A stretch of DNA of 32,000 nucleotides. Origin: Candidatus Saccharimonadota bacterium. Its GTDB lineage: Bacteria > Pseudomonadota > Gammaproteobacteria > Johnevansiales > Johnevansiaceae. The DNA lies in NCBI RefSeq assembly GCF_000300075.1, contig NC_018677.1, positions 240,001 through 272,000 of the forward strand, given 5' to 3'. The notes beneath the pieces were generated by a model. That model had not been told where the DNA came from and did no database searches. It was given only the letters and a program-made list of their open reading frames with translations. Shown here in pieces: positions 1-31,187 of the stretch (positions within the stretch are counted from its first letter, which is position 1; every line of letters starts with the position of its first letter). The position numbers and the translations under genes were made by a program.

Positions 1-170
1 ACTATCATTTTAATTAACCTAATAAAAATTTCTCCTAATGGTTGTAAAACGTTTATAAGTACCCAAGATTTAATATAGTTGTTTTGATGTAATATTAAAC
101 CTGTAATTATTCCAAAACATAAACCTATTATTATTTTTAATGCCAAATTTTTTGATTGAATTATTTTCAT
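1..170 (-). CDS. gltP: Glutamate/aspartate:cation symporter (DAACS family). Only the first 56 codons are present; the gene runs off the left edge.
   Basis: The reverse complement of 1-170 starts at ATG (168-170) and reads MKIIQSKNLALKIIIGLCFGIITGLILHQNNYIKSWVLINVLQPLGEIFIRLIKMIV without a stop. The pattern N.L.P.G.IFI.LIKMIV matches my recollection of the E. coli GltP N-terminus better than DctA. It is absent from the ORF track because it is truncated. Confidence 0.6.
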   Translation of the reverse strand, partial: MKIIQSKNLALKIIIGLCFGIITGLILHQNNYIKSWVLINVLQPLGEIFIRLIKMI

Positions 171-299
171 TTTTTTCTAATTCTTTTTTTTTTATATTAT
201 GCTTTTAAGAGTATTATACACAAAAACAAATCATATTTTAATAATTCCGCTAATAAAGTTTTTTTTGTATTGTCTTTTAAATAATTATACAGATTGTAG

Positions 300-2826
300 T
301 TAGAATTTAAACTAACTAGGGTCTGATTTGTATTTATTCATTAAGTTGTAAAATTTTATTGTATTTATTACTTTTAATTTATAAGTGTTGATCGTTACTG
401 TGTTTTTTACTTCCTTTTTATAGTTTTATTTTTGTTTTGCTCTATGTTTTTTATTGCTGTTATTTTGTTGTTATTTCTGCTTCTTTTGTTTATCTTTTTA
501 TTTGTTATATTTATATTGTTATTGTTATTGTATTTGTAGTTGTAGTTGTAGTATCCGTTTGTTAGTATTTGTTTCATGTTATTATCTTGTTGATGTTATT
601 AGTTAGGTTCTTGGCTTTTTATTAGTTGTTGATATTTTAAAAGTTTTTAGTATTTGTTTAGTTCAATTGATTAAAATATTTGTTGTTTTGTTTAATTGAT
701 GTTTATAGTATTTTGTTTATAGGTGTTAGTTAAAGTTAAGATTAAAGTTTATATTAGTTTTTTTTGTTTTAAAACCTGTACAGTTATACAGTATTATAAA
801 GAATTTAAAAGTTTTTATTTTTAGCTGGTAGTTTATTTGTTATTAGTTTGTTATAAGAGGTTTTGTTATTAGTTTGTTTTATATTATTTAAAGATTAAAG
901 ATGTTTTGTTATTAGTTTAAAAGTTTTTAGATGTTTAATCTATATGTTATATAGTAAAAAAAATGTAGTTATTTTGTTGTTCTGTTATTAAATTTTAGAA
1001 GTTAGTAGTAGTAGTTATGTTGTTAGATATATGTAGTTATTTAAAAACTATTGTTGTTAAATATTAATTTGTATTAAGTTTATGTTATTTATTTATTTTT
1101 GTTTGTTTTATTATTCTGTTATTTGTTACTTAGTAGATAGTTGTAGTTATTTGTTTATTTGTAGTTAAAGGTTTAATGAACTATTGGTAGTTAGTTGTGT
1201 TTTTTTTTTTTTTTTTAAGACTTTGTTAAACAAAAAGACGCTAATATTTGTATTGTATAGACTAATGTATTTTGTTGTTGTTTGCTGTTGGCTGTTGATT
1301 ATTTATTTAATATGTGATGTGTAGTTTTTTATTGTTAGGTGGTTAAACTTATTTGTGCTAGTTGTTTATCTGTTGAATATTGATATGCATTTTTTTTTGT
1401 TTGTTTTGTAAACTGTTTACTGTTATTCTTGATATGTAATTGGTTTTATCTTTTGTAAGGTCTATTATGTATTTTTATATGTTTTTTAAAAAACAAATAA
1501 TTTATTGTTTGCTGTTGATTTTAATATATTTATTGTAAGGTTTTAGGTGTAGTGATATGCCTTTGTTTTTTTTTTTAGGTGTTGCTTTTTATGTGATGTT
1601 GTAAATTGTGTAATAAGTGAGATACTTTATCATATGCAATAATTTTGTATATTGTTATAATTTGTTAAAAAGATTTGTTGGGAGAGTTGAGATGGAAGAT
1701 GCTTAGTTAAAAGTTGTAAATTTGAATGTTGTAAGATACTGTGTTAAAAGTTTAATAATATTTTATATAAAGTGTAAGTTGTTTTGTTGTGAGCTGTGAG
1801 CGTTTAGTTGTTAATTTTTTAGAGTTTAGAGTTTTGTGTTGTTGTGGTTATTTGTTAGAGTTTTAAATCGTTGATTTTATCTGTTAGTTATTGTTTAGAG
1901 ATTTTGGGTTTTGAGGTTTCTTTTAAGATTTAAGCGGTTGCTTTTTTGAGTTTTTTTTTGTTAGTTATAGGTTATAATTGTTATTTAAATCTGTTAGTTA
2001 TTGTTTGTTATAGGTTATTTTTTAGTAATTAGAGTTTGCTTTAAAGTTTAAAGATTAAAGATTTTTGTTTTTTATCTGTTAGAGGTTTTTTTTAGATTTT
2101 AGATATTATCTGCTTGCGGTTATAGTTTTAATTTTAGATATTTAGTTATTAGAGGTTATCTGTTGATGTTAGAGGTTATGTTTTGTGGTTAGATTATTAG
2201 ATATTTTTTGTTTGTATGTTTTTTACTATTTACTTTGTAAATATTTTTGTTATATATTTAACAATATGTTGTATTTTTGAGTTTATATGTAGTATAGTAG
2301 TGTGTTGTATAAATAAGAAATAGTTTATTAGAGGTTTGTTTGTTAGATATTAGAAGTTAGAGTTTTTGTTTTTTAGAGGTTAGCTTAAAGAGTTTTGAGT
2401 TTTGATGTTTGTTGTTTAGATAAAAGATGTGTTTTTAATTAGATGTTAGATGTGATTTGTTTTTTATTAGATGTTTAATTATTAGAACTTTGTTTCTTGA
2501 TTCTTGATTTTAGAATTTAGAATTTAGAGGTTAGAGTTGTTAGGTTAGAGGTTTGTTTTTTAGATGTTTATTTAAAGATGTTAGTGGTTATGTTTTGTGG
2601 TTAGAGTTTTTTATAGTTGCTTGTTTTTTAGATTTTAGATTTTAGAGCTTAGTTATTAGATGTTGCTTAAATTAGATGTTAGATGAGATTGTTAGATGTG
2701 ATTTTTAGATGTTATATATTTGAATTGTTTTATTGTTTTATTATTTGAGTTTTTAAGTTAATATCTTAAGCACTTAAGAGTTTAAGATAAGAGTTGAATG
2801 TAAGGGTTTAATTTTTTAACATTGTA
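300..2826. other. C-depleted (G+T-rich on + strand) non-coding arm, the left arm of the gltP-metF spacer.
   Basis: Hand counts of 60-nt lines give G 12 / C 1 for 961-1020 and G 8 / C 1 for 1021-1080. There are no long ORFs. The arm has dense TTAGAGGTT / TTAGATGTT / ATCTGTTAG motifs, short tandem runs (e.g. 530-555 TTGTTA/TTGTAG units) and a T17 run at 1200-1216. Boundaries are +/-50 nt. Confidence 0.85.
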
Positions 2827-2849
2827 AAATAAAAAGCAGTCGTTAATAC

Positions 2850-3900
2850 ATAACAATATACTCCTCTAATATCAACAACCTACAACCTACAACCTACAAC
2901 CACAAACCACAAACCATCAAATAAACATCTAACCATCTTATTTAATCATATAACATAACATAACATAACATAATATAACTTATACAAAATCTAATTTACT
3001 TTCTTTTGTACAACTTATAACAACAAAAAGCCTTAAACATCTAACATAAAATAAAAGAAACATCTAATAACTAAGCTCTAAACAACAAAAAACAAATTTA
3101 AATAAGAAACAAACAACATAAAAACTCAAACTCTAAAACATAAAAACTACAAACTACAAACTCTAAACTCTAAACTCTAAAAAATAAACATCTAATAAAC
3201 AACATAAAATAGTATAGAGCATACAAAAGTATACCTATAAAAAAAGCAACCTCTAATAAATAATAAACAACCAAGAATAAATAATAAAAGCAAACATTTA
3301 ACTTCTAAAAAACAAAAACTCTAACATCCAATAAATAAACCTCTTAAAATTAAACCTACAACATCTACTTTAAAACACATCTTTTATCTTAATTTAATAA
3401 CATATAACAATTACATCTAAATAACTAATAAAAGAAACATCTAATAACTAACATCTAAAATCTAAAAAAACACCTCTAATAACTAACAGCTTTAATCTTT
3501 AAATCAACCTAAAACCTCTAACAAACAAATAACAGTTTTAAGCAACAAAACTCTAACAACATAAAAAAAACATCTAACAGATAAAAAATTAAAAACACCA
3601 AACATTAAACATTAAAACAACAAATAACCACAAAACATTAAACAAAACTCGATCCTCGAAAAAAAATTAAAACTAACAGCAAAAACTCTAAAAGAAAACT
3701 AAATTGTAACAAACAATAACTAACAGATTAAAGCAAACACCAAACAAAGCTCTAAACAAAACAACATCCAACAGATAAAAAAAAATAACAACAAAAACAC
3801 AAAATCAGAAAACATAACAACAGAACAGCTAATACATAAAAATAACAAAAAATACAAGAATAAAAAAAAAACAATAAAAACTAAAAGAATAATAAAAAGA
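2850..3900. other. G-depleted (A+C-rich on + strand) non-coding arm, the right arm of the gltP-metF spacer.
   Basis: Line 3061-3120 has G 2 / C 11 by hand count. The motifs are reverse complements of those in the left arm (AACCTCTAA, CATCTAA, CTAACAG). Microsatellites include (CAACCTA)3 and (CACAAAC)2 at about 2878-2915, (ACATA)5 at about 2950-2975, and (CAAACTA)/(CTCTAAA) runs at about 3150-3185. Confidence 0.85.
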
Positions 3901-3908
3901 AGAAAAAG

Positions 3909-4739
3909 ATGAAAAAAAATGAAGTAGAAATAAGTTTCGAGATGTTTCCACAAAAAGAGCATTATAAAACAAAAGTTTTTATAAAAAAAATAAAACAGTT
4001 ATATAAAAAAAAAGATATAAAATTTTGTTCAATTACATATGGAGCTGGAGGATCAAACAAAAAAAATACGCTTGAGATTATAAAAAATATAAAAAAACAA
4101 AAAATAGAATGCGTACCACATTTAGCTTGTATTACAACGAAAGAAAAAGACTTAATAAAAACTTTAAAAAGTTATAAAAAAATAGGGATAAAAAAAATAT
4201 TAGCACTAAGAGGTGACATCAAAACAAACACAAAAACAAAGTTTATAAATTCACTAGATCTATTAACATTAATAAAGAAAAATTTTTATAAAAACTTTGA
4301 AGTGATAGTAACAGCTTATCCAGAAATGCACCCCAACACTATAAGTTTTGAAAAAGAAGTTTGCTTTGTTATAAAAAAATTCATGTTTGGAGCCAATAAA
4401 GCAATTACACAATATTTTTATGATCCAGATTCATATTTTTATTTTGTAGAGAAAGTTAGAAAATATGGTGTTGAAAAGCATATAATTCCAGGCATAATGC
4501 CTATAAGTAATGTAAACAACTTAATAAATTTTTCAAAAAAATGTGGTGCTAATATTCCAAAATGGATATATAAAAAATTAGAATTTTGTAAAACTGACAA
4601 TGACATAGAACATATCGGTAACGATATTGTTATTAAATTATGTGAAACATTAATAAAAGGTGGTGCCCCAGGTTTACATTTTTATACACTAAATAAATTA
4701 GAACCAACATTAAATATTTTAAATTCATTAATAACATAA
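3909..4739 (+). CDS. metF: 5,10-methylenetetrahydrofolate reductase
   Basis: Full-length 276-aa ORF. Segments ISFEMFP, SITYGAGGS, PHLACI, LALRGD, TAYPEMHP, GANKAITQYFYD, IIPGIMPI and HFYTLN are colinear with E. coli MetF as I recall it. Confidence 0.9.
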   Translation: MKKNEVEISFEMFPQKEHYKTKVFIKKIKQLYKKKDIKFCSITYGAGGSNKKNTLEIIKNIKKQKIECVPHLACITTKEKDLIKTLKSYKKIGIKKILALRGDIKTNTKTKFINSLDLLTLIKKNFYKNFEVIVTAYPEMHPNTISFEKEVCFVIKKFMFGANKAITQYFYDPDSYFYFVEKVRKYGVEKHIIPGIMPISNVNNLINFSKKCGANIPKWIYKKLEFCKTDNDIEHIGNDIVIKLCETLIKGGAPGLHFYTLNKLEPTLNILNSLIT

Positions 4740-4740
4740 A

Positions 4741-6094
4741 TTATTTGCCTAAATAACGTAAAGCTTTTCCATTCATTATTTTTTTTTCTATTTGCTCCAA
4801 TGAAATACCTTTTGTTTCTGGTATTACAAATATAGTAAAAAAGATAAAAGCTATATTAGCTAATGCTAATAAACTAAAAGTAAGTGGTCCACCAATTTAA
4901 CTTAGTATAGTTAAAAAGAACGTTCCAAGTAACATATTAGCTAACCAATTGTCAATTGGCTATTGGCTATTGGCTATTGTTGAACAACTTATTCCAAATT
5001 ATCGTCCATACAATTGTTGTATTTCTGCACATAAAATCCAAATTATAGGGCCAGCTGACATAGCAAAACCAGCAACAAAGATTAATAACGAAAATATAGA
5101 TAAAAATTGTATAAAGTGTAATGTGCGTGTGTATAAAATTAAACTTAATAATGCAATTCCTATAGCCATAATAGTAAAACAAAAATATAAAATGGGTTTT
5201 ATACCTACTTTATCTACTAATATAATAGCGACTATTGTTGATAAAACGTTAACTAAACCAACAGTTAAAGTACTTAACAATTGCGGTTTAGTTCCTGTAA
5301 AACCATAAAATTCAAAAATTTTAGGAGAAAAGTATATCAAAACGTTCATGCCTGTCAATTGCTGTATAAATTGTAAAAAAATGCCTTTAAGTACAGATCT
5401 ACGAAAGTTAATATTTTTTTTAAAAGAAATTAAATCCAAAGCTTTTATTTTAAAAATTGATGCTGTTAAAATTTTCGTTAAGTTCATTATTAACTTCAAA
5501 CTTAGATGCTCTTAAATTGTGTAAAAGTTTTATGGCTTCACGGTTTTTATTTGTAGAAGCTAGCCATCTAGGGCTAGCAGGAATTAATAATATGCAAAAA
5601 AATAAAAGTATTGAAGGAACAATTAAGAGTTCTAACATACTTCTCCAATTTTGTAAATAACTTTAAATAAGTTTTGATATTAAAGCCAAAAGTGTTCACA
5701 TCGTAACCATAAATTGATATAAGGATATTGTCATTCCTCTAATACTTTTTTGAGTTATTTCTGCTAAATATAAAGGAGCAGTAAATGATGCCGAGCCCAC
5801 AGATTAACCAATTATTATACGAGCGATAATTGATATTTTTGTAGAATTTGCAAATACTGTTAGTACCGCACCTACAACATAATATGTTGAACTAAGTAAT
5901 AATGATCTTTTTATACCAGTTGTTTGTGATACAATACAATACAATACAATACAAGTATATAATGCGCAAATATAAGCTCCCCAAATCATAGAGCCTACTA
6001 TACAACCCGCAATGTTAGTAGATAAATTTAATACGTTTGTAAAAAAAGGTAAAGAACCTGAAATAACACCTATATCAATTCAAAAAAAATACAT
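4741..6094 (-). pseudogene. MFS sugar:H+ symporter (GalP/AraE/XylE-like), inactivated.
   Basis: The minus-strand translation is colinear with GalP (IDIGVISGSLPF, GIKRSLLL, TAPLYLAEI..IRG, PASPRWL, NFRRSV, QQLTGMNV, FAMSAGPIIWILCAEIQ, IDNWLANM, PETKGISLEQIE). It is interrupted by at least 7 in-frame stops: TGA at 6080-6082 and 5696-5698, TAA at 5804-5806, 5663-5665 and 4996-4998, plus a TAG and a TAA further 3'. There is one frameshift near 5450-5470. The N-terminal TM1 region is missing. Microsatellite insertions are (GGCTATT)3 at about 4958-4980 and (ACAAT)4+ at 5931-5955. Confidence 0.85.
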
Positions 6095-6119
6095 AATAAA
6101 AAATATACAACAAAAAAGA

Positions 6120-6480
6120 AAGAACAAAAGGTACGATTTTAGTAAAGTTGTTTGAAAAATTGGTTTAATGAGAAAAAAAAATGTAAATTAGTAGTGGAAA
6201 AGAAATGGTTGTATAAAAAAGTGAAAGTAAGGAGAGAAAGGTTAAGTTCATTGCTGTAATAGTAGAAGAAAAGAAGGTTGACAGTTTAGTTTTTAAAAGG
6301 TATAAGTTTTGTTACGGTAGTATGGTAGATATTATAGATTTTGTTTTCTATTTTAGTTTTAGCAATTATGTTGATTTTGTTTTTGTTAATGATTAATAGT
6401 TTCTGTTGTGGTTTAGTGGATTGCTCATTATGTCTTTTTGTGGACTTTTTGTTTTGTGGTTTATGTGTGAAAAAGTTTAA
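6120..6480. other. Short C-depleted (G+A/G+T-rich) spacer segment between the transporter pseudogene and zwf.
   Basis: By eye, 6120-6300 is purine-rich and 6300-6480 is G+T-rich, with very few C. The two ORFs in the track here (6286-6498 -, 6341-6556 +) are low-complexity. Confidence 0.6.
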
Positions 6481-6547
6481 CATAGAACTAATCTCCATAA
6501 TCTTTATTATTTTAGATAATTATAATATAATAATATTTATTTTTTTT

Positions 6548-6552
6548 AGGAG
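6548..6552 (+). promoter_or_regulatory. Shine-Dalgarno-like AGGAG upstream of zwf.
   Basis: AGGAG lies at 6548-6552. ATG codons follow at 6553, 6556 and 6562. Only 6562 has conventional spacing (9 nt), so the true zwf start may be 6562. Confidence 0.45.
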
Positions 6553-11810: not shown

Positions 11811-13790
11811 TATTTTTTGTTTTTTTTGCTGTGTTTTCTGCTTTAAAATCTTTTCTTTTTTATTAGAGGTTGCTTTGATTATTTAGAGTTTAGAGGTTTG
11901 TTTTTTAGATGTTAGATTAGTAGATAGATGTTTGTTTATTTAGTTTTTAGGTTTTAACTTTATAAAAGTTATGCTAAAGAAATGAAATGATTTAGTAGTT
12001 GTTTGTTAGATTTATGCTTTAGTATTTAGTACTTATTTGCTATTTGTTTGATTTGTGGTTTGTCATGGTTATATTAATTGAAAATTTGTTATTTAAAAGC
12101 TTTTAAATGTTGTTATATTAATGATTTTGCAGTAAATTCTTTTTTGTTAGAGTTTAGAAAAGTTGTAGTTGTTAGAGATTAGATTTTAAAAATTTTAGTG
12201 TTTAGATGTTAGTTTCTTAGAAGTTTGGTATTTAATGATTAATTCTTGCTTAAAAGTTGTTTCTTTTTTATTATTAAGTTGTTGTTTTTTTAAAGTTGTT
12301 AGATAATAATAAGTGCTTGTTGTTATTGGTTTACTTATTTTTGGTTATTAGTTTTGTTTATTTTGATTGTTGTTTTTACTAAAACTTTGTTTGTTTAAGT
12401 ATCGATTGATGTTTAGTTGTTAGCCGTTTAAAACTTGTTGATTTGTAATTTGAGTGTATAATTTTTGATGGTTAGTAGTTGTTTAGTTATTAGAGTTTAT
12501 ATTTTTAGATGTATGTTGTAATATTAAAATGTTGTTAAAGAGGTTTATTGATAGTTGTTTAGTTATTAGAGTTTAGAGTCTTGATATTTGCTGTTAAGTT
12601 ATTAGTTGTTATTTATTTGAGGTTTGCTGTTAAGTTATTAGTTGTTTTGTTTGTAGATTTTATAAAAATTATTGTTTGGTTGTTATAGATGTTGATGTTT
12701 GTTGTAATGTTATTAAAAATGGTTTGTTAGTTGTTAGTTGTTAGAGCATAGATATTTGATTAATGGTTGTTTAGTTGTTGGTTATAAAAAAAAGAAATGT
12801 TGTTTATTCGTTGATAGAGGTTTGGTGTAAAATGATGAGTTGTTAATTGATAGAGGATTGTTAGTAGTTGTTATTAGCTGATAGAGTTTTGGGGTTTTGT
12901 AGTTTGTAGTTAGAGCTTAGTTATAAGATGGTTGTAAAAGGGGTTATTTAGTTGTTAAATTGTTAGTAGGTTTGTGGTAAGAGGATTATTGTTTTGTTCT
13001 TAATAAAATTGTTGTTAAATATAGAAAGAAGAAGAATAGAGTTGTATAGAAGAAATAACCAAGTTAAAAAAAGAAGAAGAAGGATATAAAAAGGTTAGAG
13101 GTTGTTTTGTAAGCTTGAAAAAAGAGGTTTGTTGGTTGTTTTGTAAGCTTGAAAAAAGAGGTTTGTTGGTTGTTTTGTAAGCTTGAAAAAAGAGGTTTGT
13201 TAGTTGTTTTGTAAGCTTGAAAAAAGAAGTTTGATGGTAGGTGCTATGTGTTTTGTTGTAAAAGGATAAAGGTTAAAGGTTAAAATGGTAATTTGTTAGA
13301 TGAATTGTGGTTAGTTGGTAAAAGTTTATCTGTTAGTTATTAGAGTTTTGAAAATAGTTGTTAATTGTTTTTTTATCTGTTAGAGGTTTGTTTTATGTTG
13401 TTTAAATGGTAGGTGTAAAAAAAGGGTTTGTGTTTTGTTAATAGGAAAATTGTGTATATGTATGTGTTTGGTGTTTTGTTAAAGTTAGTTAAGTAGTTTT
13501 ATATTGTGGAAAGTTGAAGGAAAGAGTTGATGGTTAAAGGTTTGAAGTTTACAGCTAAAGATAACAGTTGTATAGACGTAAAAAGGGTAAGTTAGGTGTG
13601 TGTATTTAAAATAGCATAAGTGAGATTATTAAGTGTTAAAAGAAAAATATGTTGAATTGATAATAATAAGAAAATTGATGAAAGAGTTCTGTTTAAATAC
13701 AAAGTAATTTATAAAAAAAAATGAACATATAACAGAAAATTGAGTTTGAATTTGTAAGTAGACTTAAAATAGATAGTTAAAAAGAAGGTA
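11811..13790. other. C-depleted non-coding spacer between glnS and cysS.
   Basis: Line 12481-12540 has G 11 / C 0 by hand count. The spacer is T-rich at the glnS end and becomes G+A-rich after about 13000. It carries many TTAGAGKTT / GTTAGTTATTAGAG motifs. Confidence 0.85.
13101..13236. repeat. Tandem repeat, 4 copies of a 34-bp unit.
   Basis: The unit GTTGTTTTGTAAGCTTGAAAAAAGAGGTTTGTTG starts at 13101, 13135, 13169 and 13203. The first three copies are near-identical and the fourth has a few substitutions. Confidence 0.9.
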
Positions 13791-13791
13791 A

Positions 13792-13798
13792 AGGAGGT
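13792..13798 (+). promoter_or_regulatory. Shine-Dalgarno AGGAGGT for cysS.
   Basis: AGGAGGT lies 6 nt upstream of the TTG start at 13805. Confidence 0.6.
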
Positions 13799-13804
13799 GT
13801 AGAC

Positions 13805-15244: not shown

Positions 15245-16940
15245 TACGATACGAGACGAGATATGACTTCTTTTTTTTTTGCTTATGTTTTAGTTTTTTT
15301 TTTTATCTGTTAATTTTAGCTTTTTTTTATACTTTATACTTTATGCTTTAGTTTTTAGCATCTTTGCATTTTGTTTTTTGTTATGGTATTTAATTATTTT
15401 ATTTGGCTTATTCAGTTCTGGTGTTTTATGTGTTTTGCTGTTAATTTTTATGTTTTTTTTGCTTGTGGTTACTAGTTAAAGCTCTGGTATTTTATGTTTT
15501 TTTTTATTTGTTATTTGTTTTATGTGTTGCTGTTATTTGTTATGTTAAAAGTAGTTGCTTTATGTCTTTCTGTTATTTTATTTCGGTTTAAATGATTTGC
15601 TTTATGTGTTGCTGGTATTTGTTATGTTTTAAGGCTTTGTGTATTGCTGTTAATTCTTATGTTTAAAGTATTTGTGTTATACTAAAAGTAGTTAAACTGT
15701 TAATAATGATAATGTTATAAGATTTTTTGTTATGTTTTAAGGCTTTGTGTATTTATAATGTTTTGTGTAAATGTTGTTTGTGTGTTTTTTTCTTTTTGAT
15801 GCTGTTAATGAGTTATGTTTAAAGGCTTTGTGTGTTGCTGTTTAGTTTATTTCTTTTTGATGTTATATATAATGTTTTTGTATTGCTGTTATGTGCTATA
15901 TAAATAGAGAATTGTTATATAAAAAGGTAGTATGTGTATGGTGTATAGATGGAAAGGTGTTATGTTAGTTGATGTGGATGGTAATTTGTTATGTAGAAAA
16001 AAGTAAGAGTTATATAAAAATGAAAAAGTTAAAGTTGTTTGGTGTGTTGATGGTATGTGGTTTGTAGAAATAGGGGGATTGCAGTTAGGTTATATGTAAT
16101 GCAGTTAGGTGGTTAGTGCGTTGATGTTGGGTGAAAAAAGTTGTATGTGTGATGATGATAGGTGTAAGGTATTATGCTGTATAAAGTAAGTGTTATATGG
16201 ATATAAGAGTAGAATTGCTGTTAAGAGTTAGAAGGTAGGAGTAAGGTGTTATGTGGTAGGTTAGATGGTAAGTGTTAAAGGTGTTGTTCGAAAAAGTTAG
16301 GTTGGTAAAATGACTATGCTAGTAGAAAAGTTTTATGGTTTTGATGGAATTTATTTATATGTGTATGTATAGTTGTTAAAAGCTCTAATTGGTTTTATAG
16401 AAAATGACTATATGCTATATGTTTTGGTGTAAGGTAAATTGGGTTAGTATTTAGTTGATATGGTTTGTGTTTTAGTTTAGTTAACTTTCATGGTTTGAAA
16501 AATATTTGTTGTAATTTGTGTAGAATAGGTATTAAAGTACTTGTTATGCAATAAGTAGTTGTGTAAAGTAATTGTTTTATGATTAATTTGTTATGTTATG
16601 TTAAAAGATTCGTGGTTAGATGGTTGTTGTTATGTGTTTTGATGAATGGTTAGGTATTGGTTTGGTGTAAAAGGGTAAAGGTGTTATGTAATTGGTTTGG
16701 TGTAAAAGGGACCTTATATAAAAAATATTTGGTTGTTCGTTTAAAAGAAAAAAGTTTGTTGTGTGTGGTTTTGCTATGAAAAGTAAAAGAGTTGTATACT
16801 AAAAGAAGGAAAGAAATTAGTTTTATGTTTTGTGAATAGCTTGTTTTGTTAAAAAGTTTTTTATATTTTGTTTAACTATTGCTTTTTTTGTATTAGTAAA
16901 AAAGATGTAAGATGTTAGATGTTAAGTAAAATAAATGCTT
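15245..16940. other. C-depleted non-coding arm downstream of tRNA-Pro.
   Basis: Line 15961-16020 has G 14 / C 0 by hand count. The arm is T-rich with GCTGTTA / TTATGTTT / GGCTTTGTGT motifs up to about 15900, then G+A/G+T-rich. A 25-34 nt module, GTTATGTTT(T/A)AAGGCTTTGTGTRTTGCTGTT, occurs at 15621, 15729 and 15812. Confidence 0.85.
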
Positions 16941-16959
16941 TTATATAAAGACTATGAAA

Positions 16960-17330
16960 CAAAATTTAAATAAACATACAGTATAAACATTAACCACAAA
17001 ACACTAACCATAAAGCATTTAACATACAATTTCATTTATTATACAGCCTTTAATATTTAAATTTAACCTTACTACTAACTATAAAATCTTTAAAACAAAT
17101 CTTTTAACACTTACTAATTTAACTTACAAAAACATGTATAATACAGCCTCTTTAATATCAATATATTACACTAAACATTTTACATAACAACATAGAAATA
17201 TATATATACAACAATAATTTAAGCATAAAAAATAAAAACATACAGCATAAAGTTTCAAAAATGTAAAAAATAAAAAAAAGTAAAGCAGAAAAAAGAAGAT
17301 AAGAAACAACAAACGGTAAACAAAAAGCAT
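16960..17330. other. G-depleted arm upstream of tRNA-Arg.
   Basis: The sequence is A+C+T only for long stretches (e.g. 16981-17100). It contains reverse-complement versions of left-arm words (ACAGCCTTTAAT, CATACAGCATAAAG). Positions 17330-17465 have mixed composition. Confidence 0.75.
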
Positions 17331-17470
17331 AAACCAGTTTATTAAGGTATATTGGTGTAAGTATACAATAATGTAAGAACTGATTTGTTTCGTATACATA
17401 AATTTTGTATATCGTTAACGAATGTAGTATATGTGCAGCACAATTAGTTATATACGTAATATTGTTTGAA

Positions 17471-17506
17471 TAACCGTAACCGTAACCGTTATAGTTATAG
17501 TTATAG
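17471..17506. repeat. Two back-to-back hexamer microsatellites, (TAACCG)3 and (TTATAG)3, abutting the tRNA-Arg 5' end.
   Basis: Read directly: TAACCGTAACCGTAACCG at 17471-17488 and TTATAGTTATAGTTATAG at 17489-17506. The last G is tRNA position 1. Confidence 0.9.
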
Positions 17507-17579
17507 CGCCCATAGCTCAATAGGAAAGAGCAACGGCCTTCTAAGTCGTAGGTTGCAGGTTCAAGTCCTGCTGGACGCA
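17506..17579 (+). tRNA. tRNA-Arg (anticodon UCU)
   Basis: Closely resembles E. coli argU as I recall it. Acceptor is GCGCCCA/TGGACGC with a C4-A69 mismatch. Anticodon stem is ACGGC/GTCGT with loop CTTCTAA. T-arm is GCAGG-TTCAAGT-CCTGC. No CCA is encoded. The 140-aa minus-strand ORF in the track (MRPAGLEPAT...) is the antisense reading of this tRNA. Confidence 0.85.
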
Positions 17580-17580
17580 T

Positions 17581-17653: not shown

Positions 17654-17705
17654 ATCCACTAACCACTAACCACTAACCACTAAACACCATCCACTAACCA
17701 CTAAT
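17646..17705. repeat. Heptamer microsatellite (CCACTAA)n that begins inside the tRNA-His 3' acceptor strand.
   Basis: The sequence reads CATCCACCATCCACTAACCACTAACCACTAACCACTAAACACCATCCACTAACCACTAA. The unit repeats the ATCCAC of the tRNA 3' end. Confidence 0.85.
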
Positions 17706-18960
17706 ATATTAGTTTTTTTTTACAATTAATAATACAATCTTTAAACAATCTATAAAACTGTTATTACTAATACAACAATTCTTTTTTTGTTAAAATAAAT
17801 ACAAATCAAAACTACACTAACTAACCTTTTAAATAATTTATAATAATACAAACACATTATATTTAGCAAACCACAATAACCTTTCTTAAAATTTAACAAC
17901 ACATAGCGTATAATATAACATAGTTAGCATATCATATATAAACTAAAAGCAAACATATGATAGTAAAACAACATCTTAAATACCCATTTATATTTACTAT
18001 ATATATAATATATTAAAACATAACATATGATTTACAAAAACAAGAAACAAAATTGTTAACAACAACAAACATACCATATACTTTATAAAAACAAATATTA
18101 ACAACAACAACTTTTAGAACACTTACATCTTAAAAACATCCTCAAATACAATAACAAACTCAACTCTTACATCAACAACATCTAACATCTTTTAAACATC
18201 CTCAATAACAACAACAACAACAACAACATCAACAACATCAAACATCAAACATAAAACATCTTACATATTACATATTACAAGAAAACTCAAGAACAACAAG
18301 ATCTAACATCTAACATCTAACATCTTAAAAACATCCTCAAAAACAATAACATATAAACTCTAAAACAACACATTCTAACAAAGAAATAAAAAACTCTAAT
18401 AACCCATCACCTATAAACCAATAACATATAAAACAAACAGATAATAAAAGCAACCATTAAATCTCTAAACTCTAAAAAGCAACATCTAGCAGACACTCAA
18501 AACTCAAAAAAGAAAACAAAAAACAACACAAACCTCTAAAAACAAATAACTAACAAATCAAAAAAACATCTAAACTCTAAAAACTAATAACAACAAAACA
18601 TATAACCTAAAAAATAATAATTAACATATAACCGCTTATAAATAAATAAAACAAAAACTAAACTCAAATAAATAAACCTCTAACAAAACAACTAACCTCA
18701 AAATAAAAAATCTAGCAAAAAAAGCAAAGGAAGAAAAAAGAACAACTTATAATAAATTAAAACATATAAGCTCTAAAAATAAGTTATATAATGACAGAAA
18801 AACATGACAAAAACAAATAGAAACTCTAACAGCATTTAAATAGCAAAAGGATATAAAACAAATATAACAAAAACAGATGTAAAAAAAAGCTTAGAACACA
18901 AAACATAAACACAAAATTTAACTAACAAAGAAATAACAAAACACTAAAAAAAAACAACAA
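17654..18960. other. G-depleted non-coding spacer between tRNA-His and the clpP pseudogene.
   Basis: Line 18541-18600 has G 0 / C 12 by hand count. It contains (AAC)n at about 18200-18230 and (ATCTAAC)3 at about 18300-18325. A module CATCTT(A/T)AAAACATCCTCAA..ACAATAACA occurs at 18126, 18186 and 18321. Confidence 0.85.
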
Positions 18961-18963
18961 ACA

Positions 18964-18969
18964 AAGGAG
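18964..18969 (+). promoter_or_regulatory. Shine-Dalgarno AAGGAG retained upstream of the clpP pseudogene.
   Basis: AAGGAG lies 12 nt upstream of the ATG at 18982. Confidence 0.4.
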
Positions 18970-18981
18970 TAAGGCGTAAAA

Positions 18982-19579
18982 ATGATGAATTATTATAAGT
19001 TTATAAAAGACAATTAGGTTCCAATAATTATTGATAATAATATTAGAGGGGATGTGTCGTATGCGGCTTTTAAAAGAACGTATAATTTTTATAGTAGGTA
19101 ATATTGAAGATAACAAAGCGAATTTAATTGTAGCACAATTATTATCTTTGGAGTATGAGAATCCAAAGAAAGATATTAATTTATATATAAATTCTCCATG
19201 TGGTATTGTAACAACAGGGTTGTCGATATATGACACTATGCAATATGTAAAACCTGATGTAGCAACTATTTGTATTTGACAAGCAGCTAGTATGGCGGCA
19301 ATTATTAAAAGCGGAGGAAATAAAGGAAAACGGTTTTGTTTACAAAATGCAAGAATAATGATACATCAACCAAACGTAAAGAAAAAAGGTCAAGCTAGTG
19401 ATATAGAAATACATACAAAAGAAATAATATCTATAAAAACAAAACTTAATAAGATTTTATCTCAAAATACAGGTCAAAATATAGAAAAAATAAAGATTGA
19501 CACAGATCGTAATAACTTTATGGATGCTAAAATGGCTTTAAATTATGGAATAATTGATTATCTAATAACAAATAGATAA
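18982..19579 (+). pseudogene. clpP: ATP-dependent Clp protease proteolytic subunit, inactivated.
   Basis: Colinear with E. coli ClpP ([12 protein letters not shown].., [56 protein letters not shown]). Three lesions are visible. An in-frame TAG lies at 19015-19017. A frameshift falls near 19060-19070 between the SY.. and RLLKER segments. An in-frame TGA at 19277-19279 replaces the Gly of the GQAASMG motif. Confidence 0.85.
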
Positions 19580-19649
19580 AACAGCTTAATTTATTAATTG
19601 GTAAAAACATAGTTACAACAAGGTTTAAAATTTATGAAGGTAAAGTATT

Positions 19650-20804
19650 ATGAAATATAAGGATGAAAAAAAATATATTGTTCTTTTTGTGAAAAACCAC
19701 AAGCAGAAGTTAAGAAATTTATAGCAGGGAAGTCAATATATATTTGTAATGAATGTATAGATTTATGTAATGAAGTTTTTAAGGAAGAAACAAGAAATGT
19801 AGAATTTGAATTTGTTTTACCAAAACCGAAAATATTTTATAACTGTTTAGATAAATATATAATAGGTCAAAAAAGAGCAAAATTAGTCTTATCAGTAGCC
19901 GTTTAAATTCATCGCTTAAAATATAAGAAACTTAACAAAAAAAAAAGCAATATTTTATTAATAGGACAAACTGGTACAGTAAAAACATTGTTTGCAGAAA
20001 CGTTAGCTTTATTACTTCTGGTTCATTTCACAATTGCTGATGCAACATCTTTAACAGAAGCATGTTATGTAGGAGACGATGTAGAGATAATAATTCAAAA
20101 TTTATTGCAAAAATGTGATTATAATATAGATAAAGCCCAAAATTGTATTGTATATATTGATGAAAAAATCATAAAATATGTCTATTACAAGAGATGTAAC
20201 ACAAATAACTGTACAACAAGTTAGACTTAAATAAATAGAAGGAACAATAGCACCCCCTAAGGGATTAACAAAACACCCTCAACAAGCATGTATAAAAGTA
20301 AATACAAAAAATATTTTATTTATTGTTGGGGGAGCTTTTTTAGGAATAGAAAAAATCATAAAGAATAAAGAAAATAAAAGAATTGGTTAAAATTCAAAAT
20401 TTAAAACAAATAAAAATATAGGTGATATTCTTAAATATGTTAATAATGAAGATTTTATAACATTAGGTTTAATTCATGAAAAATTTGGTAAATTACAAAA
20501 TCTAGTTACTTTAAAGGAATTAAATAAAGTTGATTTATTAATAATTTTAACGAATTCTAAATTTTCATTATTACAGCAATATTCATGCTTGTTTGATCTT
20601 GATTGTGTTTATTTGCATTTAAATAATAAAGCACTTAAAGCTATCGTAAACAAAGCTATATTGATAGAAAATGGTGCAAGAGGATTACGTTATATAATAT
20701 AAACTAGAAACCATGTTAAAACTGCCCTCAAACAACAATGTAATTAAAGTCATTATAAATGAAAAGGTAATATTAGGGAAACAACAACATTTATTATTTT
20801 ATAA
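19650..20804 (+). pseudogene. clpX: ATP-dependent Clp protease ATP-binding subunit, inactivated.
   Basis: Colinear with E. coli ClpX ([104 protein letters not shown]). An A8 run at about 19666-19673 puts the start codon out of frame with the zinc-finger segment. TAA replaces Tyr at about 19906. Walker A is degraded from GPTGSGKT to GQTGTVKT. There is a frameshift after IDE (about 20165) and several more stops (about 20222, 20389, 20701). Confidence 0.85.
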
Positions 20805-25385: not shown

Positions 25386-26460
25386 CCTTTTGTTTTTTTT
25401 TACAATAATAGGCTTAATCTCACTTTTGCTCAAAATATAACTTGTACCTTTTTTGTTTTCTTTTTTATGCTTATGTGTTAATTGTTCTTTTTATTTTAGC
25501 TACTATATGTTTTTTGTTTTTTTTTAATTTGTGTTAGTTGTTTCTAGTTAGTTTAATTTTATGTTTTTCTTTTGTTTTTTCCATTCATTGTTATATTATT
25601 TAACTTATTTATTGTATTTGTTTGCTGTTATGTGTTATATGTACTTGCTTATATTTTTATTAGCTGGCATTTTGTTAGTTAAATATTTTTTGTATATAGA
25701 ATATATATTAGTAGTTTAAAACTGTTTTTGCTGTGTGTTATGTTCTTTTAATTAAAATGGTAAAATGTTTTAGATACTTTTTTGTTTTATGTTTCTTAAT
25801 TTGGTGTATGTTTTGTTATATAATGTTGAAATAAATTAAAAAGTGTTATAAATGTGTGTGTTGTTTGGATAATAATATGTTGATTGGTTATTATTGTGTG
25901 TTTGTAAAAAATACATGAGTTAGGTTTTAGATAGGTTGATTTGGTGTTTGTAAAAGTTGTGTAGTAGGTGGAATGTTATTAAAAAGGTAAAGAGAAGTTG
26001 TACTGAAAAAAAATAGTAGTTGTGTATTATATAAAGAAAAATAAAAAAATAGTAGTTGTGTATTATATAAAGAAAAATAAAAAAATAGTATGGAAAAAAA
26101 GGTAGTGTGTAATAGAAAAAAAATAGTTGTGTATTATGGAAAAGAAGTTAATGTTATGTAGAATGAGGAGTATAAAAAAGGTTTGCCGTAAATTGTTAAT
26201 AATAGGTGTAATGAGAAGGAAGTTATATAAAATAAAAATCAGATATGTGTAAGCTGTAGGTCTTATATTGAGTGTTGTGAAGTAAAAAGGATAGAGTGTT
26301 TGTTTTGTGTGCTGTGAAGTAAAACGATCTTACCATTAAAATGTATAAAAATTAGATTTAAATAAAGATGTGTGTTGTTAAACTAAAAGACGGTTGAGTT
26401 ATGTTGTGTTAAAAAAAAGCGAGTATTGTAAGCAGTTGTATATATATGTAGTTAAACGAT
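25386..26460. other. C-depleted non-coding spacer downstream of aspS.
   Basis: The spacer is T-rich with GCTGTTATGTG-type words to about 25850, then G+A/G+T-rich. Composition becomes mixed from about 26460 to the pal-like start. Confidence 0.75.
26005..26140. repeat. Tandem repeat, about 36-bp unit, 2 full copies plus 2 partial or diverged copies.
   Basis: ATAGTAGTTGTGTATTATATAAAGAAAAATAAAAAA starts at 26013 and 26049. A truncated copy lies at 26085 and a related AATAGTTGTGTATTATGG at about 26120. Confidence 0.85.
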
Positions 26461-26731
26461 AGACAATATTTAAAAAGGTTGTTTTGTAATATAAAAGGTA
26501 ATAGTGCTTGTTGAAAACAACAACTTTGAAATAGCATATACACAGTTGTGTAAAAGAACAAGTAGCCATAGATTAGTAATAAGTCAGTATTTACGATTAA
26601 ATATCTAAAAATACAATATAAAAACAGTAAAACGAAAATATTGGTACGTTTGTTATTAAAATTAAAATATATAAAATAGATTGTTAAAGAGGTAATATAA
26701 AGTACGATTATAGGTTATAAAAACATAAAAT

Positions 26732-27412: not shown

Positions 27413-27439
27413 ACTTTAATACAAACACGTTTTTCTTTT

Positions 27440-28860: not shown

Positions 28861-28979
28861 AATAATAAGTTATAGAACACCACCATATATAAGCGTTAGG
28901 TTTTAAATTGTAAAAGTTTGTATTTACATATTAAGCTAATACGCCATATTTACAAAGGTTGTTGAAGGTATAGATCATT

Positions 28980-31130: not shown

Positions 31131-31172
31131 GCATAAAAAATATAAATAAAAAAACAAAGACAAAAATAACAA

Positions 31173-31178
31173 GAGGTG
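31173..31178 (+). promoter_or_regulatory. Shine-Dalgarno GAGGTG for lipA.
   Basis: AAGAGGTGA at 31171-31179 lies 8-9 nt upstream of the ATG at 31188. Confidence 0.55.
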
Positions 31179-31187
31179 ATTTCCAGT

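What the first reader, a model, noticed from the sequence alone, without database searches (positions are those of the whole stretch)
171..3908. The 3.7-kb divergent gltP|metF spacer is a degenerate giant inverted repeat
The C-poor left arm (about 300-2826) and G-poor right arm (about 2850-3900) share exact reverse-complement matches. I verified three base by base: 2641-2662 TTTAGAGCTTAGTTATTAGATG against 3061-3082, 2356-2377 GTTAGAGTTTTTGTTTTTTAGA against 3304-3325, and 2418-2435 AGATAAAAGATGTGTTTT against 3372-3389. The first two pairs are roughly symmetric about 2840-2860. The third is out of order, so this is not a clean palindrome. It looks more like an old inverted duplication that was later reshuffled and expanded by local duplication. 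A transcript or single strand spanning both arms could form long imperfect duplexes. Each arm is A+C-rich in the sense direction of the gene it precedes.
Basis: seen in the sequence. Interest (0 to 1): 0.75.

Follow-up and report, generated by a model that had tools for sequence, protein, structure and literature searches.

The report
Two opposite-polarity repeat blocks, Portiera spacer
The 3.7-kb gap between gltP and metF is one of the known bloated, microsatellite-derived spacers of the whitefly symbiont Portiera: two abutting blocks of the same short-repeat family in opposite orientation, not a demonstrable giant inverted repeat.

Summary
The three reverse-complement matches are exact. The left arm has 3.5% C and the right arm 3.0% G. 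The arms share far more reverse-complement words than arm-wise shuffles give (k=14: 83 vs 5.7).

The window comes from Candidatus Portiera aleyrodidarum of Bemisia tabaci. Its expanded intergenic regions, rich in 7-bp microsatellites, are already published.

gltP|metF is an ancestral adjacency. The spacer is about 170-185 nt in two compact relatives, about 370 nt in a third, and 2,153 nt in a fourth, where it has one polarity throughout. So the A+C-rich right arm arose in the B. tabaci lineage.

The shared words are not private to the two arms. The same family (ATCTGTTAG, TTATTAGAGGTT) fills other spacers up to 27 kb away, always in the orientation of the local skew.

Antiparallel collinearity is weak. 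Four or five long words lie on one diagonal through the junction (post hoc P about 0.01). Between them the sequence is no more alike than random arm segments. Two other polarity switches in the window have arms that share almost nothing.

Four-fold sites of neighbouring genes show almost no skew, so the asymmetry belongs to the amplified repeats, not to background mutation.

Verdict: known kind, partly supported interpretation, low-to-moderate interest.

The parts
1..171 (-). 5' end of gltP (SDF-family transporter); start codon at 171-169
   Evidence: Pfam PF00375 on the called gene in L001-L004; sequence read
205..245 (-). gltP-proximal promoter-like block (TTAAAA-17-TATAAT), conserved next to gltP in four Portiera lineages; not part of the skewed repeat
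   Evidence: Promoter scan hit 241->213; the block aligns with L009 and PeMo and is visible in SiSi
300..1750 (+). Outer left arm: G+T-rich, T-rich TTGTT/GCTGTT-type degenerate heptamer repeats
   Evidence: Composition; lag-7 autocorrelation +0.05; tandem arrays
1751..2826 (+). Inner left arm: G+T-rich block of the TTAGAG/TTAGATG/ATCTGTTAG word family in forward orientation
   Evidence: GC skew +0.72 to +0.88; lag-7 autocorrelation +0.13; word hits
2827..2850 (.). Polarity junction, where skew changes sign
   Evidence: the centres of the diagonal matches, 2831-2862, coincide with it
2875..2979 (+). Purest and most length-polymorphic microsatellites: (ACAACCT)4.6, (AACCACA)3.3, (ATAAC)6, just right of the junction
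   Evidence: TRF; seven strain-specific indel events of 1-14 nt at 2873-2950
2850..3900 (-). Right arm: the same word family in reverse orientation (A+C-rich on the + strand). Absent as an opposite-polarity block from the relative L009
   Evidence: L009 spacer is G+T-rich throughout
2641..2664 (+). Anchor word, exact reverse complement of 3059-3082 (24 nt)
2356..2377 (+). Anchor word, exact reverse complement of 3304-3325 (22 nt)
1988..2010 (+). Anchor word, exact reverse complement of 3707-3729 (23 nt)
2418..2435 (+). Exact reverse complement of 3372-3389 (18 nt), off the main diagonal
1085..1156 (+). Site overwritten in strain CP007563 by a 78-nt near-copy (75/78) of 1247-1318
3909..4739 (+). 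metF (methylenetetrahydrofolate reductase)
   Evidence: PF02219; exact protein in CP007563, CP016304 and JGI Portiera records

Best explanation
The spacer is non-coding DNA that grew in place, between two genes that have always been neighbours, in the Bemisia tabaci lineage of the whitefly endosymbiont Portiera.

How it grew:
- It is built from decayed heptamer (and 5-35-nt) tandem repeats.
- Growth comes from slippage and from short copy-paste (template-switch or gene-conversion) events. This lineage has lost the sliding clamp, clamp loader, proofreading subunit, MutL and SSB.
- New units are copied from neighbouring units, so a block keeps one polarity over kilobases. The amplified words contain G but almost no C, so each block is extremely strand-asymmetric.

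What the two arms are:
- The spacer holds two such blocks, made from the same B. tabaci-specific word family, abutting in opposite orientation at about 2840.
- The reverse-complement matches between the arms are family-level sharing, strongest between nearest neighbours.
- They are not the remains of a well-preserved giant palindrome.
- How the right block acquired the opposite orientation is inferred, not shown. It could be an inverted copy or an inversion of part of the left block that has since turned over, or seeding from another spacer.

Function: the fold-back potential across the junction is a by-product. No function is indicated.
For: Identity: the metF protein is an exact match in the B. 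tabaci-associated genomes CP007563 and CP016304 (CP016304 is also cited for this lineage in PMC13637331) and in two JGI records; its closest relatives outside that lineage are titled Candidatus Portiera aleyrodidarum.

Ancestral adjacency and stepwise growth of the gltP|metF spacer:
- 184 nt in TV.
- About 173 nt in PeMo.
- About 370 nt in SiSi.
- 2,153 nt with a single polarity in L009.
- 3,737 nt in B. tabaci.

No gene lies between the two in any relative, so the spacer is not a pseudogene remnant or a rearrangement junction.

Repeat nature:
- TRF reports 68 rows, many with period 7.
- A lag-7 autocorrelation peak appears in all nine spacer blocks and not in coding DNA.
- Strain differences are almost all indels, with a mode of 7 nt. 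This matches PMC3673631.
- Copy-paste is seen directly: a 78-nt patch in CP007563 copied from 168 nt away.

Word family:
- TTATTAGAGGTT with up to 1 mismatch: 26 hits vs 0.7 expected. ATCTGTTAG: 9 hits vs 0.27 expected.
- All hits lie in spacers, and their strand follows the local skew.
- Exact matches of 24 and 21 nt link the left arm to the glnS|cysS spacer.
- The family is absent from the L009, SiSi, PeMo and TV loci.

Not background mutation: 1,147 four-fold sites of 12 neighbouring genes are A .40, T .47, G .07, C .06. Their GC skew is about +0.1 in the sense strand for both gene orientations. Spacers have G at 18-22% and skew of 0.7-0.9.

The loss of dnaN, dnaQ, dnaX, holA, holB, mutL, ruvC and ssb in this lineage is taken from PMC3673631.
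Against: - The arm pair is the most similar of all 36 block pairs: k=12 density 70.8 per kb2 against 45 or less, and matches of 15 nt or more at 5.3 per kb2 against 3.3 or less.
- Four of the eight long private matches fall in a 35-nt-wide symmetry window that coincides with the junction (exact permutation P=0.009, thresholds chosen post hoc). A specific inverted-copy event is therefore not excluded.
- Why the amplified words are G-rich and C-free in three lineages with different words is unexplained by founder effect alone.
- In the roughly 43 kb examined, all three kb-scale polarity switches are G-rich to C-rich, never the reverse. A purely random history would not predict this, though n=3.
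- The slippage and template-switch mechanism is inferred from sequence patterns and gene loss. It was not observed.
Confidence: 0.6

Rival explanations
1. About 1 kb of the left block was duplicated in inverted orientation about position 2840, by fold-back or template-switch replication. Both copies were then scrambled by slippage, indels and local duplication, leaving only a few collinear words.
For: - The arms are the most similar block pair.
- Diagonal-band concentration gives P=0.003-0.018. A monotonic chain of HSPs runs from 1096/3907 to 2685/3038.
- The four longest private words have centres at 2831-2862, at the skew junction.
- Anchor spacings are similar in the two arms: 677 vs 671 nt between the outer anchors.
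- The relative L009 has one polarity only, so the right arm is a derived addition of roughly the right size.
Against: - Inter-anchor segments are no more similar than random right-arm segments (fraction at or above observed 0.36-0.86).
- Global alignment barely beats block-shuffled arms (P=0.015-0.095).
- Other block pairs reach comparable nominal band significance.
- Equally long exact words link the arms to distant spacers.
- The other two polarity switches in the window have unrelated arms, so a switch does not require a duplication.
Confidence: 0.25
2. Block polarity is imposed by a strand-specific process acting on the spacers. Candidates are replication-fork direction (G+T-rich on the strand exposed as single-stranded DNA) or transcription running into the spacer from both sides. 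Under this reading the junction marks where two directions meet, a local termination or convergence zone.
For: - G+T versus A+C asymmetry is the signature of single-strand C->T and A->G deamination (established knowledge).
- In relatives the spacers are G+T-rich on the same strand that is G-rich at four-fold sites: PeMo +0.37, L009 +0.21, SiSi +0.14.
- Orthologous spacers keep the same polarity in three lineages.
- All three switches in the window are G-rich to C-rich.
- SSB is lost in this lineage (PMC3673631).
Against: - Four-fold sites of genes flanking the spacers in B. tabaci Portiera show essentially no strand skew: +0.09 for plus-strand genes and +0.11 for minus-strand genes, both in the sense strand.
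- Spacer G (18-22%) is three times the neutral G content, which deamination cannot produce.
- The T excess of the spacers is absent at four-fold sites.
- No rule based on flanking gene orientation fits. The spacers before cysS, before the gene at 26732, left of aroQ, and between lipA and lysC are counter-examples.
- Three 'termini' in 32 kb would need many origins.
Confidence: 0.1
3. The arms form a functional structure: a cruciform or hairpin in DNA, or a long double-stranded or leader RNA that regulates gltP or metF.
For: - In silico pairing across the junction is strong. RNA MFE is -284.5 against -193.3+-6.8. DNA MFE is -150.8 kcal/mol for 2241-3440, while each arm alone is almost structure-free.
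- The architecture is conserved among the B. tabaci Portiera strains compared here (four complete genomes plus the window, which matches one of them).
Against: - No Rfam match even at E<=1.
- The arms vary in length between strains by many indels, and the zone flanking the junction is the most variable.
- Relatives do without the structure.
- The conserved promoter-like block sits next to gltP, outside the arms.
- Any opposite-polarity spacer pair pairs nearly as well.
- Pairing needs more than 400 nt of one strand to be single-stranded, or a transcript crossing the whole spacer.
Confidence: 0.05

Closest known systems
Expanded, microsatellite-rich intergenic regions of Portiera from Bemisia tabaci (Sloan & Moran 2013, PMC3673631; Santos-Garcia et al. 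2015 and 2020, PMC5322561 and PMC7821994)
   Same: Same organism and same class of object. It is a kilobase-scale spacer between genes that are tightly packed in other Portiera. It has a 7-bp repeat signature and 7-bp indel polymorphism between strains. The lineage lacks dnaQ and other replication and repair genes.
   Different: Those papers, as far as I could search them, do not mention three things: the block-wise extreme strand asymmetry (C or G at about 3-4% over kilobases), the abrupt polarity switches inside spacers, or the word family shared between spacers in skew-matched orientation. The word 'skew' is absent from PMC3673631 and PMC7821994. Other papers report only genome-level skew.
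Large inverted repeats, palindromes and cruciform-forming sequences (for example products of fold-back or template-switch inverted duplication)
   Same: Two adjacent arms of opposite orientation, a defined centre, several exact reverse-complement words, and strong predicted fold-back.
   Different: There is no collinear homology between the anchor words. Arm similarity is only 1.6-2.5 times the background shared with other spacers. The arms are unequal (about 2.65 kb against 1.05 kb).
Replication-terminus type GC-skew switch (cumulative skew maximum)
   Same: The sign change from G>C to C>G on one strand gives a local maximum of cumulative GC skew at about 2840.
   Different: The skew is confined to the spacers and is absent at four-fold sites of flanking genes. 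Its magnitude (0.7-0.9) far exceeds replication skews. Three such switches occur within 32 kb.
Strand-asymmetric organelle genomes (G+T-rich heavy strand of vertebrate mitochondria)
   Same: Keto/amino (G+T against A+C) asymmetry. Each strand alone has little capacity for G-C pairing.
   Different: In mitochondria the asymmetry is mutational and also affects synonymous sites. Here synonymous sites are unskewed and the asymmetry belongs to the amplified repeat units.

Membership tests
Expanded repetitive intergenic region of Portiera (B. tabaci lineage) | Lies in a Portiera genome of the B. tabaci lineage | tested here: met
   Exact metF protein in CP007563.1, CP016304.1 and two JGI records. 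The window has 0 mismatches to the CP016304 locus. Records of relatives are titled Candidatus Portiera aleyrodidarum.
Expanded repetitive intergenic region of Portiera (B. tabaci lineage) | Spacer between genes that are close neighbours in Portiera with compact genomes | tested here: met
   gltP|metF spacer is 184 nt in TV, about 173 nt in PeMo, about 370 nt in SiSi, 2,153 nt in L009 and 3,737 nt here.
Expanded repetitive intergenic region of Portiera (B. tabaci lineage) | Short tandem repeats with a 7-bp mode | tested here: met
   TRF arrays of period 7. Lag-7 autocorrelation is +0.05 (outer left arm), +0.13 (inner left arm) and +0.11 (right arm), and about 0 in coding DNA.
Expanded repetitive intergenic region of Portiera (B. 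tabaci lineage) | Length polymorphism between strains by repeat-unit indels | tested here: met
   18 indel events in the spacer among 5 sequences. Window-wide the size mode is 7 nt, 9 of 32 events.
Large inverted repeat / degenerate palindrome | Arms share reverse-complement sequence beyond composition | tested here: met
   k=14 matches 83 vs 5.7. Longest match 24 nt vs 15.4+-1.3.
Large inverted repeat / degenerate palindrome | Matches are collinear on one antiparallel diagonal along the arms | tested here: inconclusive
   Chain P=0.054. Band P=0.003-0.018, but other pairs are similar. Alignment against block shuffles z=1.3-2.3. Four of 8 long private words lie on one diagonal, P=0.009 post hoc.
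Large inverted repeat / degenerate palindrome | Homology extends between the anchor matches | tested here: not met
   Five inter-anchor segment pairs score no better than random right-arm segments.
Large inverted repeat / degenerate palindrome | Similarity is specific to the two arms | tested here: not met
   The same words, including 24-nt and 21-nt exact matches, are shared with spacers at 11.8-13.8 kb, 17.7-19.0 kb and 28.9-31.2 kb.
Replication terminus / origin skew switch | Skew extends to neutral sites of flanking genes and switches once per replichore boundary | tested here: not met
   Four-fold-site GC skew is about +0.1 in the sense strand of genes of both orientations. There are three switches within 32 kb.
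Known structured RNA (Rfam) | Match to a curated covariance model | tested here: not met
   No hit in 1-4100 at E<=1. Only five tRNAs in the whole window.
Pseudogene remnant | A gene occupies the position in relatives, or a residual ORF or domain remains | tested here: not met
   No gene lies between gltP and metF in TV, PeMo, SiSi or L009. Spacer ORFs are at most 80 aa and low-complexity.

The most novel reading that the evidence does not exclude
Proposed reading:
- The kilobase-scale, nearly C-free (or G-free) blocks are not an accident of which motif happened to expand.
- They are the only kind of repeat DNA that a replisome without clamp, clamp loader, proofreader, MutL and SSB can amplify and keep.
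- The reason would be that each strand alone is almost unable to fold. The arms give -5 to -7 kcal/mol per 300 nt. Coding DNA and DNA of neutral composition give about -21.
- On this view block polarity records the direction of copying.
- A polarity junction such as 2840 is the one place where a long fold-back can form. That would make it a growth and instability zone.

Supporting hints:
- The purest and most polymorphic arrays flank the junction.
- In the roughly 43 kb examined, kb-scale switches are always G-rich to C-rich.
- The whole-genome positive GC skew reported for B. tabaci Portiera would then reflect an excess of one spacer polarity.
Probability: 0.15. Interest if true: 0.6.

Novelty: already known. 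Interest (0 to 1): 0.3.

Why it matters
As given, the finding does not reveal a new element. It re-discovers one of the bloated, repeat-derived spacers that make B. tabaci Portiera an exception among ancient insect endosymbionts.

What may be worth a specialist's attention is a property that the papers I could search do not describe:
- The spacers are built of kilobase blocks with almost no C, or almost no G, on one strand.
- Block polarity can flip abruptly inside a spacer.
- Spacers share a lineage-specific word family in skew-matched orientation.
- Synonymous sites next door are unskewed.

That combination has three consequences:
- The spacers are far from mutational equilibrium and are being renewed by copying.
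- It gives a concrete handle on how a crippled replisome generates DNA: word sharing, a copy-paste patch in one strain, and hot arrays beside the junction.
- It warns that GC-skew-based origin or terminus calls in these genomes are dominated by spacer polarity.

Tried and rejected
- **Genome-wide sampling of spacers.** I scanned metagenome contigs for the 18-nt family word TTTTATCTGTTAGAKRTT. No genome-wide polarity tally was possible, and only about 43 kb of the B. tabaci Portiera genome could be read.
- **Polarised substitution spectrum in the arms.** Only about 10 genuine point differences exist among the five sequences; the rest are indels or the 78-nt patch. This was abandoned.
- **Rearrangement junction.** I considered that the junction marks a breakpoint between two formerly separate spacers. 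Rejected: gltP|metF adjacency is ancestral.
- **Displaced metF promoter.** I considered that the central 2826-2870 block is the ancestral metF promoter moved by a 5'-UTR expansion. Rejected: BLAST places the homologue of the L009 metF-proximal 60 nt directly upstream of metF, at 3849-3908.
- **Polarity rules based on genes.** The 'outward from genes' and 'A+C-rich upstream of genes' rules both have counter-examples.
- **Discrete mobile element.** Copies anchored on ATCTGTTAG align for only about 20-40 nt.
- **Selection against promoters within arms.** Depletion against arm-wise shuffles is only z=-1 to -2.5 in five of the seven spacer blocks tested (both arms of this spacer among them); two other blocks show an excess, z=+1.7 and +2.3. 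The whole-region shuffle is an unfair null because it mixes the two arms.
- **Folding the full 2.1-kb inner spacer with shuffles.** This timed out, so I used 1.2 kb instead.
- **Database look-ups.** Protein P0009 (Aleurodicus) is not on record. The P0001 contig starts 63 nt upstream of metF. The host of sample SRR10613586 (L009) could not be identified.
Full report
**What is at the coordinates**

Window positions 1-171 are the 5' end of an SDF-family transporter gene (gltP) on the minus strand. Positions 3909-4739 are metF on the plus strand. The 3,737 nt between them contain:
- no tRNA;
- no Rfam match, even at E<=1;
- no ORF over 80 aa, and every translation is low-complexity.

Their symmetry centres are 2861.5, 2840.5 and 2903.5. 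Two of them extend further, and there is an unlisted 23-nt match between 1988-2010 and 3707-3729.

The left arm (300-2826) is A .25, C .035, G .18, T .53. The right arm (2850-3900) is A .57, C .195, G .03, T .21. GC skew changes from about +0.8 to about -0.8 within roughly 100 nt around 2840.

**Is it more than chance?**

Yes, for the arms as a whole.
- With each arm dinucleotide-shuffled separately, reverse-complement word matches are 188 vs 37.7+-12.8 (k=12), 83 vs 5.7+-4.3 (k=14) and 45 vs 0.9 (k=16). Order-5 Markov simulations give 79, 15 and 3.
- The longest match is 24 nt against 15.4+-1.3 in shuffles. None of 200 shuffles reaches 22 nt, but 7-29% reach 18 nt.
- BLAST finds 28 minus-strand HSPs between the arms and no plus-strand HSP.

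**Where the window comes from**

- The metF protein occurs, residue for residue, in CP007563.1, CP016304.1 and two JGI records of about 351-357 kb.
- The window has no mismatch to the CP016304 locus.
- Relatives found with the protein are titled Candidatus Portiera aleyrodidarum.

This is the primary endosymbiont of the whitefly Bemisia tabaci. Its unusually large intergenic regions, 7-bp microsatellites, 7-bp indel spectrum and structural instability are published. So is its loss of dnaN, dnaQ, dnaX, holA, holB, mutL, ruvC and ssb (PMC3673631; PMC5322561; PMC7821994).

**History of this particular spacer**

gltP (minus) and metF (plus) are divergent neighbours in every Portiera I could read. 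The spacer lengths are:

| Lineage | Spacer length | Source |
|---|---|---|
| T. vaporariorum (TV) | 184 nt | |
| Pealius mori (PeMo) | about 173 nt | |
| Singhiella simplex (SiSi) | about 370 nt | |
| L009, unidentified whitefly sample (metF 78% identical) | 2,153 nt | |
| B. tabaci (this window) | 3,737 nt | |

So the spacer is neither a rearrangement junction nor a decayed gene. It grew in place.

Both gene-proximal ends are retained next to their genes:
- the promoter-like block TTAAAA-17-TATAAT at 241-213;
- the last 60 nt before metF.

In L009 the whole spacer is G+T-rich on the plus strand, right up to about 100 nt from metF. The A+C-rich right arm is therefore a novelty of the B. tabaci lineage. 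It is present and collinear in all five B. tabaci Portiera sequences compared.

**The arms are not special within the window**

The window holds several more kilobase spacers with the same extreme skew:
- 11811-13804 (plus);
- 15245-16945 (plus), switching to minus at 16946-17505;
- 17655-18982 (minus);
- 25386-26731 (plus);
- 27415-28900 (plus), switching to minus at 28901-31188.

A further spacer lies just past the window's end.

I oriented all nine blocks to be G+T-rich and compared word sharing.
- The k=12 match density of the two arms is 70.8 per kb2. That is the highest of all pairs, but of the same order as right arm against glnS|cysS spacer (45.1), right arm against the lipA-upstream block (36.5) and right arm against 17655-18982 (30.1).
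- In the opposite relative orientation sharing is essentially zero for nearly every pair, with one small-block exception at k=12.
- Exact matches of 24 nt and 21 nt link the left arm to the glnS|cysS spacer 9-11 kb away.
- TTATTAGAGGTT with up to 1 mismatch occurs 26 times (0.7 expected). ATCTGTTAG occurs 9 times (0.27 expected). All hits are in spacers, and the strand always follows the local skew.
- Copies align for only 20-40 nt, so these are shared modules, not a long element.
- The family is absent from the L009, SiSi, PeMo and TV loci. It therefore spread among spacers within the B. tabaci lineage, in both orientations.

**Is there a giant antiparallel diagonal?**

Only weakly.
- About half of the BLAST bits fall in one 240-nt-wide diagonal band whose centre (2780-2880) coincides with the skew junction. 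Permutation gives P=0.003-0.018, but several unrelated block pairs reach similar nominal values.
- The best collinear chain scores 334 bits against 266+-38 (P=0.054).
- A semi-global alignment of 1700-2840 to the reverse complement of 2841-3908 scores 202, against 182-187 for block-shuffled right arms (z=1.3-2.3).
- I restricted the test to words unique in each arm and absent elsewhere in the window. Of the eight such words of 15 nt or more, four have centres within 2831-2862. Exact permutation gives P=0.009, with thresholds chosen after seeing the data.
- The five stretches between and beyond these anchors are no more similar to their diagonal partners than to random right-arm segments. The fraction of random segments scoring at least as well is 0.36-0.86.
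- The other two polarity switches in the window have arms sharing 0 and 1 HSP.

A polarity switch therefore does not need an inverted duplication. If one happened here, almost nothing of it is left.

**What the skew is not**

Four-fold degenerate sites of 12 genes in the window (n=1,147) are A .40, T .47, G .07, C .06. Their GC skew is +0.09 for plus-strand genes and +0.11 for minus-strand genes, both measured on the sense strand.
- There is therefore no replication-type strand skew here.
- The neutral G content is one third of the spacer G content.
- The spacers are far from the mutational equilibrium of their neighbours.
- The asymmetry must come from the repeat units that are being amplified, not from strand-biased deamination.

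In the relatives, four-fold sites do show G>C on the plus strand of this region: PeMo +0.37, L009 +0.21, SiSi +0.14, TV +0.10. B. tabaci Portiera shows -0.08. Spacers in the relatives are G+T-rich on that same strand. The original polarity may thus have been set relative to replication direction. This is inference.

**How the spacer grows**

- Lag-7 autocorrelation is positive in every spacer block, with harmonics at 14 and 21, and absent from coding DNA: +0.13 in the inner left arm and +0.11 in the right arm.
- TRF lists many period-7 arrays plus units of 5, 13, 14, 20 and 35 nt.
- Among five strain sequences the spacer has 18 indel events. Window-wide the mode is 7 nt. Five of the ten polymorphic sites with indels of 5 nt or more lie within 300 nt of the junction, where the purest arrays sit: (ACAACCT)4.6, (AACCACA)3.3 and (ATAAC)6 at 2875-2979.
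- One strain (CP007563) has 73 nt at 1085-1156 overwritten by a 78-nt copy (75/78 identical) of the segment 168 nt downstream, with short homologies at the edges. This is either a template-switch or gene-conversion patch, or an assembly error.

Together with the published gene losses, this supports slippage plus short-range copying as the generator. New units inherit the polarity of their source.

**Folding**

- The 1.2 kb centred on the junction folds to -284.5 kcal/mol (RNA parameters), against -193.3+-6.8 when the arms are shuffled separately.
- Pairing the left arm with two other A+C-rich spacers gives -244 and -242. Pairing another G+T-rich spacer with the right arm gives -211. Two unrelated spacers give -262.
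- With DNA parameters each arm alone is almost structure-free: -5 to -7 kcal/mol per 300 nt, against -20.8 for coding DNA and -22.7 for random sequence of four-fold-site composition. The junction-spanning 1.2 kb reaches -150.8.
- The weakness of self-folding is purely compositional.

It is a family property, and nothing indicates that it is used.

**Comparison with what is known, and verdict**

The object belongs to the published class of expanded, microsatellite-rich intergenic regions of B. tabaci Portiera. It meets all four defining features I could test.

It fails two of four features of a true large inverted repeat (homology between anchors; specificity to the two arms), and a third (collinearity) is inconclusive. 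It is not a terminus-type skew switch, a known RNA or a pseudogene remnant.

In the papers I could search I did not find three things:
- the block-wise extreme strand asymmetry;
- the polarity switches inside spacers;
- the skew-matched word family shared between spacers.

'Skew' does not occur in PMC3673631 or PMC7821994. Other papers report only genome-level skew, including an overall positive GC skew of B. tabaci Portiera genomes. That is an absence in a limited library, not proof of novelty.

I rate the finding as already known in kind. Interest is low to moderate, and it rests on the undescribed polarity architecture rather than on a giant inverted repeat.

Noticed in passing
window 1085-1156 and 1247-1318; L001 7177-7254 and 7345-7422: In strain CP007563 about 73 nt of the left arm are replaced by a 78-nt near-copy (75/78) of the segment 168 nt downstream. 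The window and three other strains keep the original. This is either a copy-paste (template-switch or gene-conversion) patch or an assembly error.
   Followed up: partly
window 15245-17505 (switch near 16946) and 27415-31188 (switch near 28900): Two more spacers switch from G+T-rich to A+C-rich on the plus strand. Their arms share 0 and 1 BLAST HSP. In about 43 kb of this genome all three kilobase-scale switches are G-rich to C-rich, and each A+C-rich block ends at the 5' end of a plus-strand gene or tRNA (metF, tRNA-Arg and the clpP pseudogene, lipA).
   Followed up: partly
window spacers 172-3908, 11811-13804, 17655-18982, 28901-31188: A word family (ATCTGTTAG, TTATTAGAGGTT, TTAGAGG) is shared between spacers in skew-matched orientation. 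It is absent from the loci of four other Portiera lineages. This implies sequence spread between spacers in a genome without known mobile elements.
   Followed up: partly
all nine spacer blocks of the window, for example 300-2826 and 2850-3900: As single-stranded DNA the skewed blocks have almost no self-folding energy: -4 to -8.5 kcal/mol per 300 nt, against about -21 for coding DNA and -23 for sequence of neutral composition. This is notable in a lineage reported to have lost ssb. The effect is purely compositional.
   Followed up: partly
window genes 3909-32000; loci L008, L009, L007, L011: Four-fold-site GC skew on the metF-sense strand is +0.37 in PeMo, +0.21 in L009, +0.14 in SiSi, +0.10 in TV and -0.08 in B. 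tabaci Portiera. The replication-type skew is gone at neutral sites of B. tabaci Portiera, while spacers there are extremely skewed. The overall positive genome GC skew reported in PMC13637331 may simply reflect an excess of one spacer polarity.
   Followed up: partly
L007 4751-7884 (Portiera of Singhiella simplex): This 3.1-kb spacer has GC skew +0.8 to +0.93 and a different word set (TTTTTGTTTTG type). The same G+T asymmetry has arisen, or persisted, with different repeats in another dnaQ-defective lineage.
   Followed up: no
window 4740-6552 and 18983-20224: Pseudogene debris is present: fragments of a sugar transporter (galP; intact as 460-578 aa in relatives) and of clpP/clpX. This agrees with the published gene losses.
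   Followed up: no
window 17474-17505, 17655-17690 and 15245-15262: Short tandem arrays abut tRNA genes directly. (AACCGT)3(TATAGT)3 lies before tRNA-Arg, (CCACTAA)4 right after tRNA-His, and GATAC/GAGAC repeats right after tRNA-Pro.
   Followed up: no
window 13096-13228 and 26010-26130: Longer-unit tandem arrays occur inside other spacers. One has about four copies of a 33-34-nt unit (GAGGTTTGTTGGTTGTTTTGTAAGCTTGAAAAAA). The other has 2-3 copies of a unit of about 37 nt.
   Followed up: no
window 172-3908 and other spacers: Sigma-70-like promoter matches are 2-10 per kb in spacer blocks, against 6.6 per kb in coding DNA and 17 per kb in random sequence of four-fold-site composition. The skewed composition itself keeps spurious promoter-like sites rare.
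   Followed up: partly
window 17158-17580 (minus strand): A 140-aa ORF overlaps tRNA-Arg on the opposite strand and runs through A+C-rich spacer. It is almost certainly spurious.
   Followed up: no
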